Below, in pieces: positions 2,481-58,199 of a stretch of DNA of 64,000 nucleotides. This stretch comes from Shigella phage phi25-307, in sequence record MG589383; one strand, written 5' to 3'. Under the pieces are notes generated by a model. That model was not told the DNA's origin. It saw only the letters and a list, made by a program, of their open reading frames with translations, and ran no database searches. Position numbers and translations under genes: made by a program. The stretch's first letter is position 1. The number at the start of each line of letters is the position of its first letter.

Positions 2481-2699
2481 TTATTTGCGACGAGATTTTT
2501 TGGTAAGAGGTTGAAAGAACACTGCTTTACCGGCTGGGGTTAAGGTGACTCGTAATGCATTACCGATTCCTAAGGATGCTTTAACTAAACCTTTAGCTTT
2601 CAGTTCACCGAATGCTTGACGTTGTTCTGCATCACGAGTGTTAACCATAAGACCTTTATCACCTGCTTCACGAATCATTTCTAACATTTTGGTTTTCAT
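2481..2699 (-). CDS. small basic protein, 72 aa
   Basis: ORF track frame; start refined to ATG 2697-2699 with GAGGAG RBS (track start at 2756 is a GTG inside the promoter); early promoter 2728-2756. Confidence 0.5.
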   Translation of the reverse strand: MKTKMLEMIREAGDKGLMVNTRDAEQRQAFGELKAKGLVKASLGIGNALRVTLTPAGKAVFFQPLTKKSRRK

Positions 2700-2727
2700 T
2701 TTGTTCTCCTCTTGTTTTGATAGGTCT

Positions 2728-2756
2728 ATAGTATCATATCCTAAAAGCATGTACAC
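2728..2756 (-). promoter_or_regulatory. early sigma70-type promoter
   Basis: gtacac 2751-2756 and atagta 2728-2733 on plus strand (GTGTAC/TACTAT on minus). Confidence 0.5.
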
Positions 2757-2774
2757 TACTTTTTAAAAATATTT

Positions 2775-2803
2775 TAACCCCCTAAAGGGACCCGAAGGTC
2801 CCC
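2775..2803 (-). terminator. intrinsic terminator-like hairpin
   Basis: gggacc-cgaa-ggtccc stem-loop after the stop of 2808-3089, followed by U-rich run on minus strand. Confidence 0.4.
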
Positions 2804-2807
2804 ACAT

Positions 2808-3089
2808 TTACTTATCGCACTTAGCAACATAATTAGGCATATCACAGAATACGGAGCGAGTAACTACTCGGCCCTTTGACCATGCTTCAGTTGCTTGTCC
2901 GGCCGTGCTATTAATATAGCTTGATCTAATGTTCTCAATACCCTGAGAATGTGATGCATTTACCGAACCATTAGAAGGCCCAGAAGACTGGTTACCACCA
3001 GCTCCTGCACTACCGCCAGCAGCACCCGTGGTAGCACCAACAGAGAATGCCATCATTACTGCGAATAAACCAATTACTAATTTTTTCAT
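2808..3089 (-). CDS. secreted Gly/Ser-rich small protein (N-terminal signal peptide, C-terminal Cys pair)
   Basis: MKKLVIGLFAVMMAFSVGA hydrophobic leader, GAAGGSAGAGG tract, CDMPNYVAKC; GAGGT RBS. Confidence 0.55.
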   Translation of the reverse strand: MKKLVIGLFAVMMAFSVGATTGAAGGSAGAGGNQSSGPSNGSVNASHSQGIENIRSSYINSTAGQATEAWSKGRVVTRSVFCDMPNYVAKCDK

Positions 3090-3120
3090 ATTTACCTCAA
3101 GTTAATGGTTATTTATCTAC

Positions 3121-4110
3121 TTATTTATAGTAAGAATTATGATTTTCGAGATAGACTTGTTCAAGGAAGTCATCCCAGAAACTCATATCTACTTTTTGTT
3201 GCATGCCGTTCTTGGCAGCTTGTTCTGATGCTTGTTCAACTTGGTCAACGATATCTTCTAGGAATTCTTGTACAGTTTTAAATGTATGTTTACCAAGCTT
3301 AACATCGAGAATAAATGGAGCATCCTGAAGTGGGTAAACCAGGTCGCCTGTTTTGTAAATTTCCAATAATTGAAGTCCACCACGACATGCATGACTCAAT
3401 GCTTTCCAGTCAATACCTTCGTTAGCTTCTGCCTTACGAGCACGTTCACCATAGTTCTCTTCCAGTTTAACCAGGATGGCATTGAACTCTTTATTGGTTA
3501 ACGTGTCTTGGAATTTACGGTCTAACAGATTATAGAATGTTTGCTTACCTGTTTTCTCGTTTTCAGTTTCAATCCACGAAGCAAATTCACCTACGGGCAG
3601 AACATTCTTCATATGTGATAAACGAATTACTGCACCATTATCAAAGTATTGTCCCCATTCATTAGAACGTTTAAGGGCTTGACGAAGAACAGCCAGTCGA
3701 GAACCCTTGACGCCGTATTTAGAAGCTTGCTTACGAACATACCCTAAATAAGATTTCATGTTAGTAGTATAGAAACGAGACCTGTTGTCTTGAATATACT
3801 TCCACACGTCAGGCAAATCAGATTTAACTACTAAACTTGGTGGAGTGTGAAGCATATCTAATGCGACGGTTTCACCATCCGCAGCTAGTTTAAAGAAATA
3901 TTTGAGACTATACAACTCATGGTCCACGTCGTCTTTTGTGTTCTTAGAAGATGTGTTATTCGTGTTCTTGCTCATATGTTCTTTAACGTTACCGGTCAAG
4001 ATGTCACGAGCATGAGGGACGTAAATTTCTTTAAAATCAACGTCAGATTCAGGAGTAGACGTTCCATAAAGGTGGCTACCAAAGTAGCCTTTCATAATTG
4101 TTTTCATCAT
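3121..4110 (-). CDS. Pol-beta superfamily nucleotidyltransferase-like protein, 329 aa
   Basis: GSHLYGTSTPESDVDF matches the hG[GS]x9-13Dh[DE]h nucleotidyltransferase signature; ATGATGA overlap with upstream membrane-protein gene. Confidence 0.7.
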   Translation of the reverse strand: MMKTIMKGYFGSHLYGTSTPESDVDFKEIYVPHARDILTGNVKEHMSKNTNNTSSKNTKDDVDHELYSLKYFFKLAADGETVALDMLHTPPSLVVKSDLPDVWKYIQDNRSRFYTTNMKSYLGYVRKQASKYGVKGSRLAVLRQALKRSNEWGQYFDNGAVIRLSHMKNVLPVGEFASWIETENEKTGKQTFYNLLDRKFQDTLTNKEFNAILVKLEENYGERARKAEANEGIDWKALSHACRGGLQLLEIYKTGDLVYPLQDAPFILDVKLGKHTFKTVQEFLEDIVDQVEQASEQAAKNGMQQKVDMSFWDDFLEQVYLENHNSYYK

Positions 4111-14110: not shown

Positions 14111-14140
14111 ATAGTATCAAAACCCTTGGAGGAAGTAAAC
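14111..14140 (-). promoter_or_regulatory. early promoter of denV with flanking inverted repeat
   Basis: gtaaac 14135-14140, atagta 14111-14116; flanked by cctccaag/cttggagg. Confidence 0.55.
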
Positions 14141-21510: not shown

Positions 21511-21540
21511 ATAGTACCACGGAAGAACAGGGATGTAAAC
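21511..21540 (-). promoter_or_regulatory. early sigma70-type promoter
   Basis: gtaaac 21535-21540, atagta 21511-21516. Confidence 0.5.
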
Positions 21541-24010: not shown

Positions 24011-24040
24011 ATAGTATCACTACCCTATCTAAAAGTAAAC
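24011..24040 (-). promoter_or_regulatory. early promoter with flanking inverted repeat
   Basis: gtaaac 24035-24040, atagta 24011-24016; flanked by gatagggta/taccctatc. Confidence 0.55.
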
Positions 24041-54923: not shown

Positions 54924-56492
54924 ATGACTACTATCAAAACTAAAGCTCAGCTCGTAGACAAATGGAAAGAACTGCTGGAAGGTGAAGGCCTGCCGGAAAT
55001 CGCTAATAGCAAGCAGGCTATTATCGCTAAAATCTTCGAAAACCAGGAAAAAGATTTCGAAGTATCCCCTGAATATAAAGACGAGAAAATCGCTCAGGCG
55101 TTTGGTTCTTTCTTGACCGAAGCTGAAATTGGCGGTGACCATGGTTATAATGCTCAGAACATCGCAGCGGGTCAAACCTCTGGTGCAGTAACCCAAATTG
55201 GGCCGGCAGTTATGGGTATGGTTCGACGTGCTATTCCTAATCTGATCGCTTTTGATATTTGTGGTGTTCAGCCTATGAACAGCCCTACCGGTCAGGTATT
55301 TGCTCTCCGTGCAGTATATGGTAAAGACCCTATCGCTGCTGACGCTAAAGAAGCTTTCCATCCGATGTATGCTCCGGAGGCGATGTTCTCTGGTCAGGGT
55401 GCTGCTAAGAAATTCCCAGCTCTGGCTGCTGGCACACAAACCACAGCAGGTGATATCTATACTCACTTCTTCCAGGACACTGGTACTGTGTATTTGCAGG
55501 CTTCTGTTCAAGTAACAATTGATGCTGGCGCTACCGATGCAACTAAATTAGATGCTGAAATTAAGAAACAAATGGAAGCTGGTGCACTGGTAGAAATCGC
55601 TGAAGGTATGGCTACTTCTATCGCTGAACTTCAGGAAGGCTTCAATGGTTCTACCGACAACCCGTGGAACGAAATGGGCTTCCGTATCGACAAACAAGTT
55701 ATTGAAGCTAAATCTCGTCAGCTGAAAGCAGCTTACTCCATCGAATTGGCACAAGACCTCCGTGCAGTACACGGTATGGATGCTGATGCTGAACTGAGTG
55801 GTATTCTTGCTACTGAAATTATGCTGGAAATCAACCGTGAAGTTGTTGACTGGATTAACTACTCCGCTCAGGTTGGTAAATCTGGTATGACTAATATCGT
55901 TGGTTCTAAAGCTGGTGTATTTGACTTCCAGGACCCGATTGATATCCGTGGTGCTCGTTGGGCCGGTGAAAGCTTTAAAGCTCTGTTGTTCCAGATTGAT
56001 AAAGAAGCAGTTGAAATTGCTCGTCAAACCGGTCGTGGTGAAGGTAACTTCATTATCGCTTCCCGTAACGTAGTTAACGTACTGGCTTCAGTTGATACTG
56101 GTATTTCTTACGCTGCACAGGGTCTGGCTTCTGGTTTTAATACCGACACTACTAAATCTGTATTTGCCGGTGTACTTGGTGGTAAATACCGCGTATACAT
56201 CGACCAGTATGCTAAACAGGATTACTTCACCGTTGGTTACAAAGGCGCCAACGAAATGGATGCAGGTATTTACTATGCTCCTTACGTTGCACTTACCCCA
56301 CTGCGTGGTTCCGATCCTAAGAACTTCCAGCCGGTAATGGGCTTTAAAACTCGTTACGGTATCGGTGTTAACCCGTTTGCTGAAAGTTCCCTGCAGGCTC
56401 CAGGTGCTCGCATCCAGTCCGGTATGCCGTCTATCCTGAACAGCCTTGGTAAGAACGCTTACTTCCGCCGTGTATATGTAAAAGGCATCTAA
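54924..56492 (+). CDS. 23: gp23 major capsid protein
   Basis: Near-identical to T4 gp23 along its length as recalled. Confidence 0.97.
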   Translation: MTTIKTKAQLVDKWKELLEGEGLPEIANSKQAIIAKIFENQEKDFEVSPEYKDEKIAQAFGSFLTEAEIGGDHGYNAQNIAAGQTSGAVTQIGPAVMGMVRRAIPNLIAFDICGVQPMNSPTGQVFALRAVYGKDPIAADAKEAFHPMYAPEAMFSGQGAAKKFPALAAGTQTTAGDIYTHFFQDTGTVYLQASVQVTIDAGATDATKLDAEIKKQMEAGALVEIAEGMATSIAELQEGFNGSTDNPWNEMGFRIDKQVIEAKSRQLKAAYSIELAQDLRAVHGMDADAELSGILATEIMLEINREVVDWINYSAQVGKSGMTNIVGSKAGVFDFQDPIDIRGARWAGESFKALLFQIDKEAVEIARQTGRGEGNFIIASRNVVNVLASVDTGISYAAQGLASGFNTDTTKSVFAGVLGGKYRVYIDQYAKQDYFTVGYKGANEMDAGIYYAPYVALTPLRGSDPKNFQPVMGFKTRYGIGVNPFAESSLQAPGARIQSGMPSILNSLGKNAYFRRVYVKGI

Positions 56493-56516
56493 TCTTAATT
56501 GATTAAATCTTATTTT

Positions 56517-56545
56517 GGGAGACTTCGGTCTCCCATTTTTGGTTT
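56517..56545 (+). terminator. intrinsic terminator after gene 23
   Basis: gggagac-ttcg-gtctccc hairpin followed by atttttggtttt. Confidence 0.7.
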
Positions 56546-56814
56546 TATTTCTGTGCAATTTCGATGTAAGTTTTCAAAATATTTTGCCAATTAGGCATAC
56601 CTTCTTGGACATATGCAGGAGAACCGTCTTTGTTTTTGAATGATGCAAGTTTATCAGTGGCCCAATAACCTTTAGCTCGAGCTTCAGAATCAACTTTCAT
56701 CCATACTTTGTTGAAGGCATTACCATTAACTTTTGCACCATATTTTTCTACTAACTTAACTGCTTCAGCTTCCAGAACTTTTAAAGTATCTCGTAAGAAA
56801 CGTGCTTTAGTCAT
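56545..56814 (-). CDS. hypothetical early protein, 89 aa, antisense to the flanking late genes
   Basis: ORF track; ATG 56812-56814, GAGGAG RBS, early promoter 56845-56874. Confidence 0.6.
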   Translation of the reverse strand: MTKARFLRDTLKVLEAEAVKLVEKYGAKVNGNAFNKVWMKVDSEARAKGYWATDKLASFKNKDGSPAYVQEGMPNWQNILKTYIEIAQK

Positions 56815-56844
56815 TTTGTTTACTCCTCTGTAGTTGATAAGTCT

Positions 56845-56874
56845 ATAGTATCACATACCAAATACGTTGTAAAC
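56845..56874 (-). promoter_or_regulatory. early promoter inside the late capsid gene cluster
   Basis: gtaaac 56869-56874, atagta 56845-56850; leader identical in style to the early-region promoters. Confidence 0.55.
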
Positions 56875-56880
56875 AATCTT

Positions 56881-56888
56881 TATAAATA
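56881..56888 (+). promoter_or_regulatory. late promoter TATAAATA for gene 24
   Basis: Exact motif 28 nt before the gp24 ATG. Confidence 0.6.
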
Positions 56889-56915
56889 ATCTATATCACA
56901 TAAGGAAAAAATGCA

Positions 56916-58199
56916 ATGAGTAAAATCCAAAAATTATTGCGTGAATCTACAACGTCTACTAGCAACTCAATTGGTCGCCCAAATCTCGTTGCTTTGACTC
57001 GCGCTACGACTAAATTAATATATTCTGACATTGTAGCAACACAAAGAACTAATCAACCTGTTGCTGCTTTTTATGGTATCAAATATCTTAACCCAGATAA
57101 CGAATTCACATTTAAAACTGGTGCTACTTATGCGGGTGAAGTTGGATATGTAGACCGAGAAAAAATTACTGAGCTCACAGAAGAATCAAAAGTCACACTA
57201 AATAAAGGCGATTTTTTCAAATATAATAATATCGTCTATAAAGTGTTAGAAGATACACCGTTTGCAGATATTCAAGAAAGTGATCTAGAATTAGCTCTTC
57301 AGATTGCAGTCGTTCATTTAAAGGTACGGTTATTTTCAGATGCAGCGGTAACAAGCAAATTTGAAAGCTCTGATAGCGAAATTTCTGATGCAAGATTCCA
57401 GATTAATAAATGGCAAACTTCAGTCAAATCTCGTAAACTTAAAACTGGCCTCACGGTCGAATTAGCGCAAGATTTGGAAGCGAATGGATTTGATGCCCCT
57501 AACTTCTTAGAAGATTTGCTTGCTACTGAAATGGCAGATGAAATTAATAAAGATATTCTTCAGTCTTTAATTACTGTATCGAAACGTTATAAAGTTACTG
57601 GAATTACTGACACTGGATTTATTGACTTGAGCTATGCATCCGCTCCAGAAGCAGGTCGTTCATTATATCGAATGGTGTGTGAAATGGTATCACACATTCA
57701 AAAAGAGACAACTTATACTGCAACGTTTTGTGTAGCCTCAGCTCGTGCAGCTGCTATTCTTGCTGCTTCCGGTTGGTTAAAACATAAGCCAGAAGATGAC
57801 AAGTATCTTTCACAAAATGCTTATGGATTCTTGGCAAATGGATTACCTCTTTACTGCGATACCAACAGCCCGTTAGATTATGTTATTGTGGGTGTTGTAG
57901 AAAATCTCGGCGAAAAAGAAATTGTAGGGTCCATCTTTTATGCTCCATACACTGAAGGAGTAGATTTAGATGACCCGGAACATGTCGGTGCATTTAAAGT
58001 CGTAGTTGATCCAGAAAGCTTGCAACCATCTATCGGATTATTGGTTAGATATGCTTTATCTGCGAATCCTTACACAGTAGCAAAAGATGAAAAAGAAGCG
58101 AGAGTAATTGATGGTGGGGACATGGATAAAATGGCAGGACGTTCAGACTTGTCTGTTTTACTCGGTGTTAAATTGCCTAAAATTATTATAGATGAATAA
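56916..58199 (+). CDS. 24: gp24 capsid vertex protein
   Basis: Matches T4 gp24 as recalled; late promoter 56881-56888. Confidence 0.95.
   Translation: MSKIQKLLRESTTSTSNSIGRPNLVALTRATTKLIYSDIVATQRTNQPVAAFYGIKYLNPDNEFTFKTGATYAGEVGYVDREKITELTEESKVTLNKGDFFKYNNIVYKVLEDTPFADIQESDLELALQIAVVHLKVRLFSDAAVTSKFESSDSEISDARFQINKWQTSVKSRKLKTGLTVELAQDLEANGFDAPNFLEDLLATEMADEINKDILQSLITVSKRYKVTGITDTGFIDLSYASAPEAGRSLYRMVCEMVSHIQKETTYTATFCVASARAAAILAASGWLKHKPEDDKYLSQNAYGFLANGLPLYCDTNSPLDYVIVGVVENLGEKEIVGSIFYAPYTEGVDLDDPEHVGAFKVVVDPESLQPSIGLLVRYALSANPYTVAKDEKEARVIDGGDMDKMAGRSDLSVLLGVKLPKIIIDE

What the first reader, a model, noticed from the sequence alone, without database searches (positions are those of the whole stretch)
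56545..56874. Early-type gene on the opposite strand between capsid genes 23 and 24
An 89-aa ORF (56545-56814) with a GAGGAG RBS and a full early promoter cassette (56845-56874) is on the minus strand between gp23 and gp24, with the gp24 late promoter only 7 nt away. Such slots in T4-type genomes often hold mobile endonuclease genes; here the occupant is an unrecognised small protein carrying its own promoter cassette, consistent with cassette-mediated insertion.
Basis: partly seen in the sequence, partly recalled or inferred. Interest (0 to 1): 0.45.

Follow-up and report, generated by a model that had tools for sequence, protein, structure and literature searches.

The report
Small early gene between capsid genes
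Between the two capsid genes of this RB69-like T-even phage lies a real, selected, early-promoter-driven 89-aa gene of unknown function, long annotated as hypothetical and sitting in a spot that related phages leave empty, fill with a divergent version, or fill with a homing endonuclease; it is an ordinary accessory gene, not a fresh insertion.

Summary
The window is a Mosigvirus (RB69-like) genome. On the minus strand at 56545-56814 there is an 89-aa ORF with SD GAGGAG (56823-56828) and a T-even early promoter (TTTACA-N17-TACTAT with TG, 56845-56874). The gp24 late promoter TATAAATA (56881-56888) begins 6 nt beyond it.

The ORF is the RB69ORF188c homologue (phrog_6003). Its dN/dS is about 0.13-0.16. 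It is present in essentially every Mosigvirus. Copies 30-38% identical occupy the same slot in Dhakavirus and Gaprivervirus. Distant copies lie in small-ORF arrays of Vequintavirinae-like phages and on one siphovirus-like contig.

The slot is empty in Tequatrovirus G50, Karamvirus, Jiaodavirus and Winklervirus. It holds segD in T4 and other homing endonucleases in Slopekvirus and Lazarusvirus. About 35 Mosigviruses carry the Dhakavirus-type allele plus a SegD-like endonuclease; identity to the window breaks inside the SD on one side and at or near the shared hairpin on the other.

The protein is basic and folds confidently (pLDDT 89) as helix-helix-beta-hairpin-helix. It matches no known family or fold.

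Best reading: a long-resident early accessory gene, probably acting on the host or a host defence, in a recombination hot spot. Function is unresolved. Interest is modest.

The parts
56516..56545 (+). gp23 intrinsic terminator: hairpin TGGGAGAC-TTCG-GTCTCCCA plus T-run. It also forms at the 3' end of the minus-strand ORF transcript, but there it is followed by A-rich sequence. It is the left homology arm of the exchangeable slot.
   Evidence: hairpin z = -4.7 on the minus strand; the core GGGAGACTTCGGTCTCCC is identical in the window, LF82-9 and JS98.
56545..56814 (-). 89-aa ORF (stop codon 56545-56547), the RB69ORF188c homologue of family phrog_6003. Basic (pI 9.6). Predicted fold helix-helix-beta-hairpin-helix.
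56823..56828 (-). Shine-Dalgarno GAGGAG, 8 nt upstream of the ATG. The crossover point in LF82-9-type Mosigviruses lies inside it.
56830..56838 (-). Leader motif ATCAACTAC, shared with three other early promoter cassettes of the window (at 14111, 21511 and 24011).
56845..56874 (-). T-even early (sigma-70 type) promoter: G-TTTACA, 17-nt spacer, TG-n-TACTAT.
   Evidence: It matches the PST/T4 PeSL promoter consensus TTTACW-N17-TAYWAT (PMC4122927). The same element is conserved upstream of the homologues in JS98, VR7, 04086 and L012, and upstream of T4 segD.
56881..56888 (+). gp24 late promoter TATAAATA, divergent from the early promoter and abutting it. DNA homology with empty-slot Tequatrovirus G50 resumes here.

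Best explanation
The feature is a genuine protein-coding accessory gene (RB69ORF188c family). It has been resident in the gene 23-24 slot of the Mosigvirus, Dhakavirus and Gaprivervirus group for a long time.

Expression (inferred from sequence): host RNA polymerase with sigma-70 transcribes it in the first minutes of infection. The promoter is a standard T-even early promoter/leader/SD cassette that sits back to back with the gp24 late promoter. The transcript runs antisense to the capsid operon and ends at, or is stabilised by, the gp23 hairpin.

Product: a small, basic, soluble cytoplasmic protein with a helix-helix-beta-hairpin-helix fold and an invariant NGNxxN loop. It has no known relatives.

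Function (inferred from context only): it is not needed for building the particle. It most likely binds a host or host-defence component (protein or nucleic acid), as other small early T-even accessory proteins do.

The slot: it is a recombination hot spot. The conserved hairpin on one side and the promoter/leader/SD on the other act as homology arms. Between them the coding payload is swapped, either by homologous exchange or by SegD-like endonuclease-driven co-conversion.

Shown here: the gene is real, is under purifying selection, has promoter/SD/terminator anatomy, is syntenic across genera, and has mapped exchange boundaries.
Inferred: early timing, cytoplasmic effector role, dispensability.
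For: Gene reality:
- Full-length match to phrog_6003 at E = 2e-45.
- 238 phage records carry it.
- Alignments with invariant positions.
- dN/dS of 0.13-0.16 for unsaturated pairs.
- AF2 model with pLDDT 89 and pTM 0.76. The only significant BFVD match is a 31%-identical 88-aa viral protein with TM 0.77, taken to be the JS98-type allele.

Early expression:
- Promoter hexamers, spacing and TG.
- The pattern is enriched 7 against 0.33 expected, all on the minus strand.
- An extended -10/ATCAACTAC/SD cassette is shared with three other early genes of the window.
- The promoter is conserved upstream of homologues in three genera and upstream of T4 segD.
- T4 segD, in the same slot, is 'early RNA' in time-resolved omics (PMC9697503 supplementary files).

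Long residence:
- Same slot and strand in JS98, VR7 and 04086 and in two metagenomic T-even contigs.
- Counts of 119 RB69-type plus about 35 JS98-type copies against about 150 Mosigvirus-like gp24 records.

Accessory nature:
- The slot is empty in G50, Karamvirus, Jiaodavirus and Winklervirus.
- Distant members sit in long arrays of small ORFs of Vequintavirinae-like phages.
- It is not marked as a virion protein in the PhAPEC2 annotation, whereas its neighbours are.

Exchange boundaries:
- (identity breaks at window 56548 and 56823).
Against: - No expression data exist for this gene in any Mosigvirus. The AV110 early-protein screen chose candidates by homology to T4 early proteins, and no Tequatrovirus homologue of this ORF was found, so it should not have been among the 45 tested.
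- No homology or fold match gives any functional handle, so the 'host or defence effector' role rests on context only.
- Near-universal presence within Mosigvirus could mean the gene is more important than 'accessory' implies.
- The one apparent knock-out (phage mogra) is a 1-nt deletion in an A5 run and may be a sequencing error.
- On the minus strand the hairpin is followed by A-rich sequence, not a U-tract. Termination there is therefore doubtful, and read-through antisense to gene 23 is possible.
Confidence: 0.6

Rival explanations
1. Mobile promoter-cassette (PeSL-type) module. On this reading the Pe-ORF unit is a shuffling module that entered the slot by recombination between regulatory cassettes and is effectively a passenger.
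For: - The promoter matches the PeSL consensus for T4-type phages.
- The cassette is repeated in the window.
- The CDS is replaced precisely between the hairpin and the SD in LF82-9-type phages. This resembles the crossovers between SD and -10 reported for PeSL mini-circles (PMC2839356).
- The slot is empty in four genera, and homology resumes exactly at TATAAATA.
- Allele lineages do not follow genera: P0006 is 61% identical to the window's protein but lies in a genome with duplicated gp24.
Against: - It is not recent. The gene is present in essentially all Mosigviruses and is syntenic in at least three genera, with saturated synonymous divergence between alleles.
- The composite stem-loop-then-promoter unit that defines a PeSL is absent. 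The sequence upstream of the promoter is the gp24 late promoter, not a stem-loop.
- In Mosigvirus the replacement allele always travels with a SegD-like endonuclease, an alternative driver.
Confidence: 0.25
2. Endonuclease-linked function. The ORF is the homing target or co-converted flank of a SegD-like endonuclease, or it supplies that endonuclease with a promoter. Its persistence would then reflect selfish-element dynamics rather than a benefit to the phage.
For: - 38 records carry a SegD-like gene 3 nt downstream of the JS98-type ORF, so the two would be co-transcribed.
- In the sampled Mosigviruses that allele is only seen together with the endonuclease.
- T4 keeps segD and the promoter but has no ORF.
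- The LF82-9 endonuclease is 57% identical to T4 SegD.
Against: - All 119 RB69-type copies, most Dhakavirus and Gaprivervirus copies, and the members outside T-even phages have no adjacent endonuclease.
- Purifying selection acts on the protein itself.
- The T4 SegD target is listed as unknown (PMC2988022).
Confidence: 0.1
3. Capsid-related or regulatory role. Either the protein assists or modulates head assembly, or the early antisense transcript reading into gene 23 damps premature capsid gene expression.
For: - Position between genes 23 and 24, with divergent overlapping early and late promoters.
- The hairpin lacks a U-tract on the minus strand, so read-through antisense to gene 23 is plausible.
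- A weak PHROG hit to an internal virion protein family (E = 0.09).
Against: - Several genera with close gp23/gp24 homologues lack any gene here.
- Family members occur far from capsid genes in other phages.
- It is not flagged as a virion protein in PhAPEC2.
- The PHROG hit is not significant.
Confidence: 0.05

Closest known systems
RB69ORF188c / JS98 orf173 / VR7ORF190c (PHROG phrog_6003, function unknown)
   Same: Full-length homology (E = 2e-45 to the PHROG; 100% identical proteins in many Mosigvirus records). Same slot, strand, promoter and terminator.
   Different: Nothing: the window's ORF is a member. The family itself has no assigned function, fold class or publication beyond genome annotation.
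T4 segD and SegD-like free-standing GIY-YIG homing endonuclease genes in the 23-24 slot
   Same: Same intergenic slot and same minus-strand orientation. The same TTTACA-N17-TAYWAT element next to the gp24 late promoter lies upstream.
   Different: The window's protein has 89 aa, no GIY-YIG or any other nuclease domain, and no similarity to SegD. In LF82-9 and IME08 the endonuclease is an additional gene downstream of the ORF homologue.
PeSL promoter-early/stem-loop shuffling cassettes of T4-type phages (Arbiol 2010, PMC2839356; Comeau 2014, PMC4122927)
   Same: The promoter fits the PST/T4 PeSL consensus. An ORFan-like payload is bounded by a promoter and a stem-loop. There is presence/absence and replacement polymorphism, with crossovers between the -10 and the ATG.
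   Different: The stem-loop is not fused upstream of the promoter. It is the gp23 terminator at the other end of the ORF. The site lies inside the conserved capsid module, not in a hyperplastic region. No mini-circle evidence exists.
Small early host-takeover and anti-defence proteins of T-even phages (for example Emp/Gp94 of Mosigvirus AV110, bioRxiv 10.64898/2026.09.14.751387)
   Same: Small size, early-type promoter, phage-only distribution, no known fold, and variable presence among genera.
   Different: No sequence or structural similarity. No toxicity, target or phenotype data exist for this ORF. It should not have been in that screen, which selected candidates by homology to T4 early proteins.

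Membership tests
RB69ORF188c / phrog_6003 family | Full-length sequence similarity to the family profile | tested here: met
   phrog_6003 E = 2.1e-45, residues 1-89 against profile positions 1-90 of 90. The PhAPEC2 orthologue is annotated 'similar to RB69ORF188c'.
RB69ORF188c / phrog_6003 family | Location between genes 23 and 24 on the opposite strand | tested here: met
T-even early (sigma-70) promoter class | -35 GTTTAC(A/T), 17-nt spacer, -10 TAnnAT-like hexamer with TG, on the early-transcribed strand | tested here: met
   (9 of 12 matches, with TG). (7 sites against 0.33 expected, all on the minus strand).
T-even early (sigma-70) promoter class | Transcription within the first minutes of infection | not testable with these tools
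   Indirect only: T4 segD in the homologous slot is classed as early RNA (PMC9697503 supplement).
PeSL regulatory cassette | Early promoter matching the clade's PeSL consensus (TTTACW-N17-TAYWAT) | tested here: met
PeSL regulatory cassette | Stem-loop terminator immediately upstream of the promoter, forming one composite motif | tested here: not met
   Upstream of the -35 lies the gp24 late promoter and gene. The only hairpin (56516-56535) is about 310 nt away, beyond the ORF.
PeSL regulatory cassette | Association with insertion, deletion or replacement differences between related genomes, with crossovers inside the cassette | tested here: met
   Empty against occupied slots. The LF82-9 crossover lies inside the SD and at or near the hairpin.
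PeSL regulatory cassette | Formation of excised mini-circles | not testable with these tools
   Needs inverse PCR on infected cells (PMC2839356).
Free-standing homing endonuclease (Seg/Mob) | GIY-YIG or HNH nuclease domain | tested here: not met
   No such Pfam hit for any of 14 family members at E <= 1. The protein has only 89 aa.
Known DNA-binding folds (HU/IHF, winged helix) | Significant sequence or structural match | tested here: not met
Known defence-system proteins (PADLOC) | Match to a defence-system model | tested here: not met
   No family for the window protein or the JS98 allele. Anti-defence libraries were not available.

The most novel reading that the evidence does not exclude
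The RB69ORF188c/orf173 family could be a new-fold early effector, for example an inhibitor of a host defence or of a competing phage. Its two deeply diverged allele classes (about 33% identity) would be functionally distinct and would be moved between T-even genera as cargo of SegD-like homing endonucleases. The endonuclease would use the ORF's early promoter and would replace the resident allele during mixed infection, so that a selfish nuclease drives exchange of a host-interaction gene inside the capsid module.
Probability: 0.15. Interest if true: 0.55.

Novelty: new member of a known kind. Interest (0 to 1): 0.3.

Why it matters
The gene is one of many uncharacterised early accessory genes of T-even phages, so on its own it is ordinary. 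Three points give it modest value:

1. It is a confidently folded, selected protein with no known fold or family. Because no Tequatrovirus homologue was found, screens based on T4 homology miss it.
2. The 23-24 slot offers a compact natural example of payload swapping between fixed regulatory arms (terminator hairpin, and early promoter/SD), with endonuclease-linked allele replacement across genera.
3. The same promoter element sits upstream of T4 segD, a gene for which a review reported no promoter.

For phage-therapy Mosigviruses it is a candidate host-interaction determinant worth a knock-out test.

Tried and rejected
**Function by homology (nothing usable)**
- Pfam gave only DUF4859 at E = 0.0029, below the cut-off, and it was matched by just 2 of 14 members.
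- NCBIfam and PADLOC gave nothing.
- A PDB sequence-profile search gave no hit below E = 0.026, and those hits were unrelated proteins.

**Function by fold (nothing specific)**
- Foldseek against the PDB gave E >= 0.49.
- BFVD returned only a 31%-identical 88-aa protein, taken to be the JS98-type allele.
- The afdb50 library was unavailable.

**Exhaustive HMM search of 1.84 billion representatives**
- It gave 9 hits.
- The multi-repeat hits P0022 and P0024 fall on Big_2-like Ig repeats of a Bacteroidetes-type surface protein. I judged them spurious, because weak matches sum over 9-11 repeats and the all-beta domains are incompatible with the helical model.
- P0020 looks like a chimeric short contig.

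**HU/IHF idea**
- Prompted by similar size, basic pI, an MNK start and alpha-alpha-beta-alpha order.
- Rejected: no Pfam, PDB or fold support.

**Literature**
- No paper mentions RB69ORF188c, its accession or the PHROG beyond unrelated ORF numbers.
- The AV110 early-protein screen picked candidates by T4 homology, so it should not include this gene.

**Other checks**
- Rfam found no known RNA family in 56300-57100.
- The mogra 'pseudogene' turned out to be a 1-nt homopolymer deletion, too weak to prove dispensability.

Full report
**1. What is in the sequence**

The window is a Mosigvirus (RB69-like T-even phage). Positions 56400-57000 are 99.8% identical to Escherichia phage PhAPEC2, and more than 100 records match at 99% or better.

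The local layout is as follows.
- gp23 lies at 54924-56492 (+) and gp24 at 56916-58199 (+).
- Downstream come rnlB, 24.2, 24.3 and hoc on the minus strand, as in T4.
- After gp23 comes a hairpin terminator at 56516-56535 with a T-run.
- On the minus strand lies an 89-aa ATG ORF at 56545-56814.
- It is preceded by GAGGAG (56823-56828), the leader motif ATCAACTAC (56830-56838), and a promoter: TTTACA (56868-56873), 17-nt spacer, TACTAT (56845-56850), with TG.
- Six nucleotides beyond the promoter, on the plus strand, is the gp24 late promoter TATAAATA (56881-56888).

**2. More than chance**

The T4-type early pattern TTTACW-N17-TAYWAT is the PST/T4 PeSL promoter consensus of Comeau et al. 2014 (PMC4122927). 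It occurs 7 times in the window, always on the minus strand, against 0.33 expected.

Four of these sites (14111, 21511, 24011 and 56845) share a longer cassette: TG(A/G)TACTAT-N6-ATCAACTAC, then the SD, then the ATG.

The ORF is a real gene.
- It matches phrog_6003 over its full length (E = 2e-45).
- tblastn finds it in 238 phage records.
- Codon-level comparisons give dN/dS of 0.13-0.16 for unsaturated pairs: JS98 against LF82-9, 04086 and IME08, and the window against P0006.

**3. Identity and distribution**

The PhAPEC2 orthologue is annotated 'similar to RB69ORF188c'.

Two allele classes exist.
- RB69-type: at least 80% identical to the window, 119 records.
- JS98 orf173-type: 30-38% identical, 119 records.

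The JS98-type allele lies in exactly the same slot and orientation in several phages.
- Dhakavirus JS98 and 04086, and Gaprivervirus VR7.
- Two metagenomic T-even contigs with duplicated gp24. One of these (P0006) carries a 61%-identical RB69-type copy.

About 150 records have Mosigvirus-like gp24, at least 95% identical over the first 200 aa. The 119 RB69-type copies plus about 35 JS98-type copies account for essentially all of them.

An exhaustive HMM search of 1.84 billion representatives found only 9 hits. A broadened profile added two more. The distant members fall in other phage types.
- P0021, P0025, P0026 and Acinetobacter phage ABPH49 sit in long co-directional arrays of small unannotated ORFs of Vequintavirinae-like phages.
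- P0023 lies after the tail genes of a siphovirus-like contig.

The family is thus small, phage-only, and typically found among early or accessory ORFs.

**4. The slot across Straboviridae**

| State of the 23-24 slot | Phages | Calls |
|---|---|---|
| Empty (81-89 nt between the gp23 stop and the gp24 start) | Tequatrovirus G50, Karamvirus, Jiaodavirus, Winklervirus | 21-23, 73 |
| segD on the minus strand | T4 | 39 (listed as 23/24 in PMC2988022) |
| GIY-YIG gene on the plus strand | Slopekvirus Miro | 70 |
| Large homing endonuclease | Lazarusvirus KARL-1 | 71 |
| Small unrelated ORFs | Krischvirus, Tulanevirus | 69, 72 |

Against the empty G50 slot, DNA homology stops 4 nt after the gp23 stop and resumes exactly at TATAAATA (window 56881). 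The terminator hairpins are analogous. The extra segment in the window is therefore essentially the ORF with its SD and early promoter.

**5. Payload swapping**

Thirty-eight records carry a SegD-like gene placed 3 nt downstream of the JS98-type ORF. The LF82-9 protein is 219 aa and 57% identical to T4 SegD. These records include about 35 Mosigviruses (the LF82 series, ATK48, AV114/116, JK45, F2 and others) and the Dhakaviruses IME08 and 04086.

In LF82-9 the flanks are 93-95% identical to the window, but identity vanishes between window 56548 and 56823.
- On the promoter side, LF82-9 is JS98-like up to the SD and window-like from the SD onward.
- On the other side, the sequence after the shared hairpin core GGGAGACTTCGGTCTCCC is JS98-like. 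The last ~100 alignment columns, covering the end of gp23 and the spacer, match none of the sampled donors well.

The exchanged unit is thus bounded by the hairpin and by the promoter/SD. These are the elements that the PeSL model uses as homology arms, and that model reported crossovers between the SD and the -10 (PMC2839356). The constant linkage to a homing endonuclease in Mosigvirus offers an alternative or additional driver: double-strand-break repair with co-conversion.

T4 keeps a TTTACA-N17-TATTAT element abutting TATAAATA upstream of segD. In T4 time-resolved omics segD is 'early RNA, middle protein' and SegD protein is detected (PMC9697503 supplementary files 4-6). An earlier review found no segD promoter. 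This supports, by homology only, early activity of the window's promoter.

**6. The protein**

- It has 89 aa and pI 9.6. All family members are basic (pI 8.0-9.8) and hydrophilic.
- AlphaFold2 on a 14-sequence alignment gives pLDDT 89 and pTM 0.76. The elements are H3-25, H31-48, a beta-hairpin at 56-60/66-70, and H76-88.
- Positions invariant across all lineages are K3, F6, G31, N32, N35 and Q70. N30, A45 and S57 are nearly invariant. This describes a conserved NGNxxN loop at the N-cap of helix 2.

No informative match was found in any library.
- Pfam, NCBIfam and PADLOC.
- PDB sequence profile.
- Foldseek against the PDB: E >= 0.49. The top hits are sub-threshold winged-helix-like domains, which I do not rely on.
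- BFVD: only a 31%-identical 88-aa protein, taken to be the JS98-type allele.

No paper discusses the gene. The AV110 Mosigvirus early-protein toxicity screen chose candidates by homology to T4 early proteins, so it should have missed this ORF.

**7. Interpretation**

Best explanation (confidence about 0.6): a long-resident, early-transcribed accessory gene. It encodes a small basic cytoplasmic protein of unassigned fold that most likely acts on a host or host-defence component. It sits in a recombination hot spot whose regulatory arms are fixed while the payload varies.
- Shown: gene reality, purifying selection, anatomy, synteny and exchange boundaries.
- Inferred: early timing, effector role and dispensability.

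The single apparent frameshift, in phage mogra, is a 1-nt deletion in an A5 run and may be a sequencing error.

Rivals:
- A PeSL-type mobile cassette. This is partly right for how alleles are exchanged, but it does not hold as a recent insertion, and the composite stem-loop-then-promoter motif is not met.
- A role tied to the SegD-like endonuclease. Most copies have no endonuclease next to them.
- A capsid-related or antisense regulatory role. The gene is absent from genera with close capsid genes, and it occurs elsewhere in other phages.

**8. Verdict**

The gene is an already annotated hypothetical gene and a member of the known kind 'small early accessory ORF of T-even phages'. Its function and fold are unknown. 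Interest is modest (0.3). The most interesting by-products are the endonuclease-linked allele replacement between genera and the conserved divergent promoter pair, which also precedes T4 segD.

Noticed in passing
L005 (LF82-9) 1471-2400; L016 (IME08) 2530-3486; corresponds to window 56548-56823: About 35 Mosigviruses carry the Dhakavirus-type ORF allele together with a SegD-like GIY-YIG endonuclease 3 nt downstream of it. Identity to the window breaks inside the SD and at or near the gp23 hairpin. This looks like endonuclease-driven co-conversion between genera.
   Followed up: partly
L015 (T4 strain 147) 2411-2500, upstream of segD: T4 has TTTACA-N17-TATTAT abutting the gp24 late promoter upstream of segD, homologous to the window's early promoter. 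A 2010 review reported no segD promoter (PMC2988022). T4 omics class segD as early RNA and detect the protein.
   Followed up: partly
window 14111-14139, 21511-21539, 24011-24039, 56845-56873 (all minus strand): Four early promoters share an extended cassette: TG(A/G)TACTAT-N6-ATCAACTAC, then the SD, then the ATG. The leader as well as the promoter is conserved between unrelated early genes.
   Followed up: partly
window about 55375-55900 (inside gp23): The central part of the window's gp23 is only 80-94% identical to LF82-9, whereas PhAPEC2 is 96-100% identical to LF82-9 there. The gp23 3' end is 97-100% identical. This suggests a mosaic patch in the major capsid gene.
   Followed up: no
L002, L003, L010, L012, L016 (JS98, VR7, IME08 and two metagenomic contigs): Dhakavirus, Gaprivervirus and related contigs carry two tandem gp24 copies downstream of the ORF slot. 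The window has one.
   Followed up: no
P0022 (1347 aa) and P0024 (3916 aa): The family HMM scored 9-11 repeated weak matches on Big_2-like Ig repeats of large surface proteins (E = 1e-15 and 5e-7). I judged this a repeat-summing artefact, because the fold is all-beta while the phage protein is helical.
   Followed up: partly
P0006 (JGI name) and PQ341120.1 (phage EAWsc9) 9994-10254: Homologues carry implausible source names ('NADPH-dependent curcumin reductase CurA', 'glycosyl hydrolase family 25'). These are probably annotation errors.
   Followed up: no
L025 (phage mogra) 301-569: The orthologue is split into two ORFs by a 1-nt deletion in an A5 run. It is otherwise identical to the window apart from one substitution. 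This is either a real frameshift or a homopolymer sequencing error.
   Followed up: yes
window 56480-56560, minus strand: On the minus-strand transcript the gp23 hairpin forms (z = -4.7) but is followed by AAAAUAAG rather than a U-tract. Early transcripts may therefore read antisense into gene 23.
   Followed up: no
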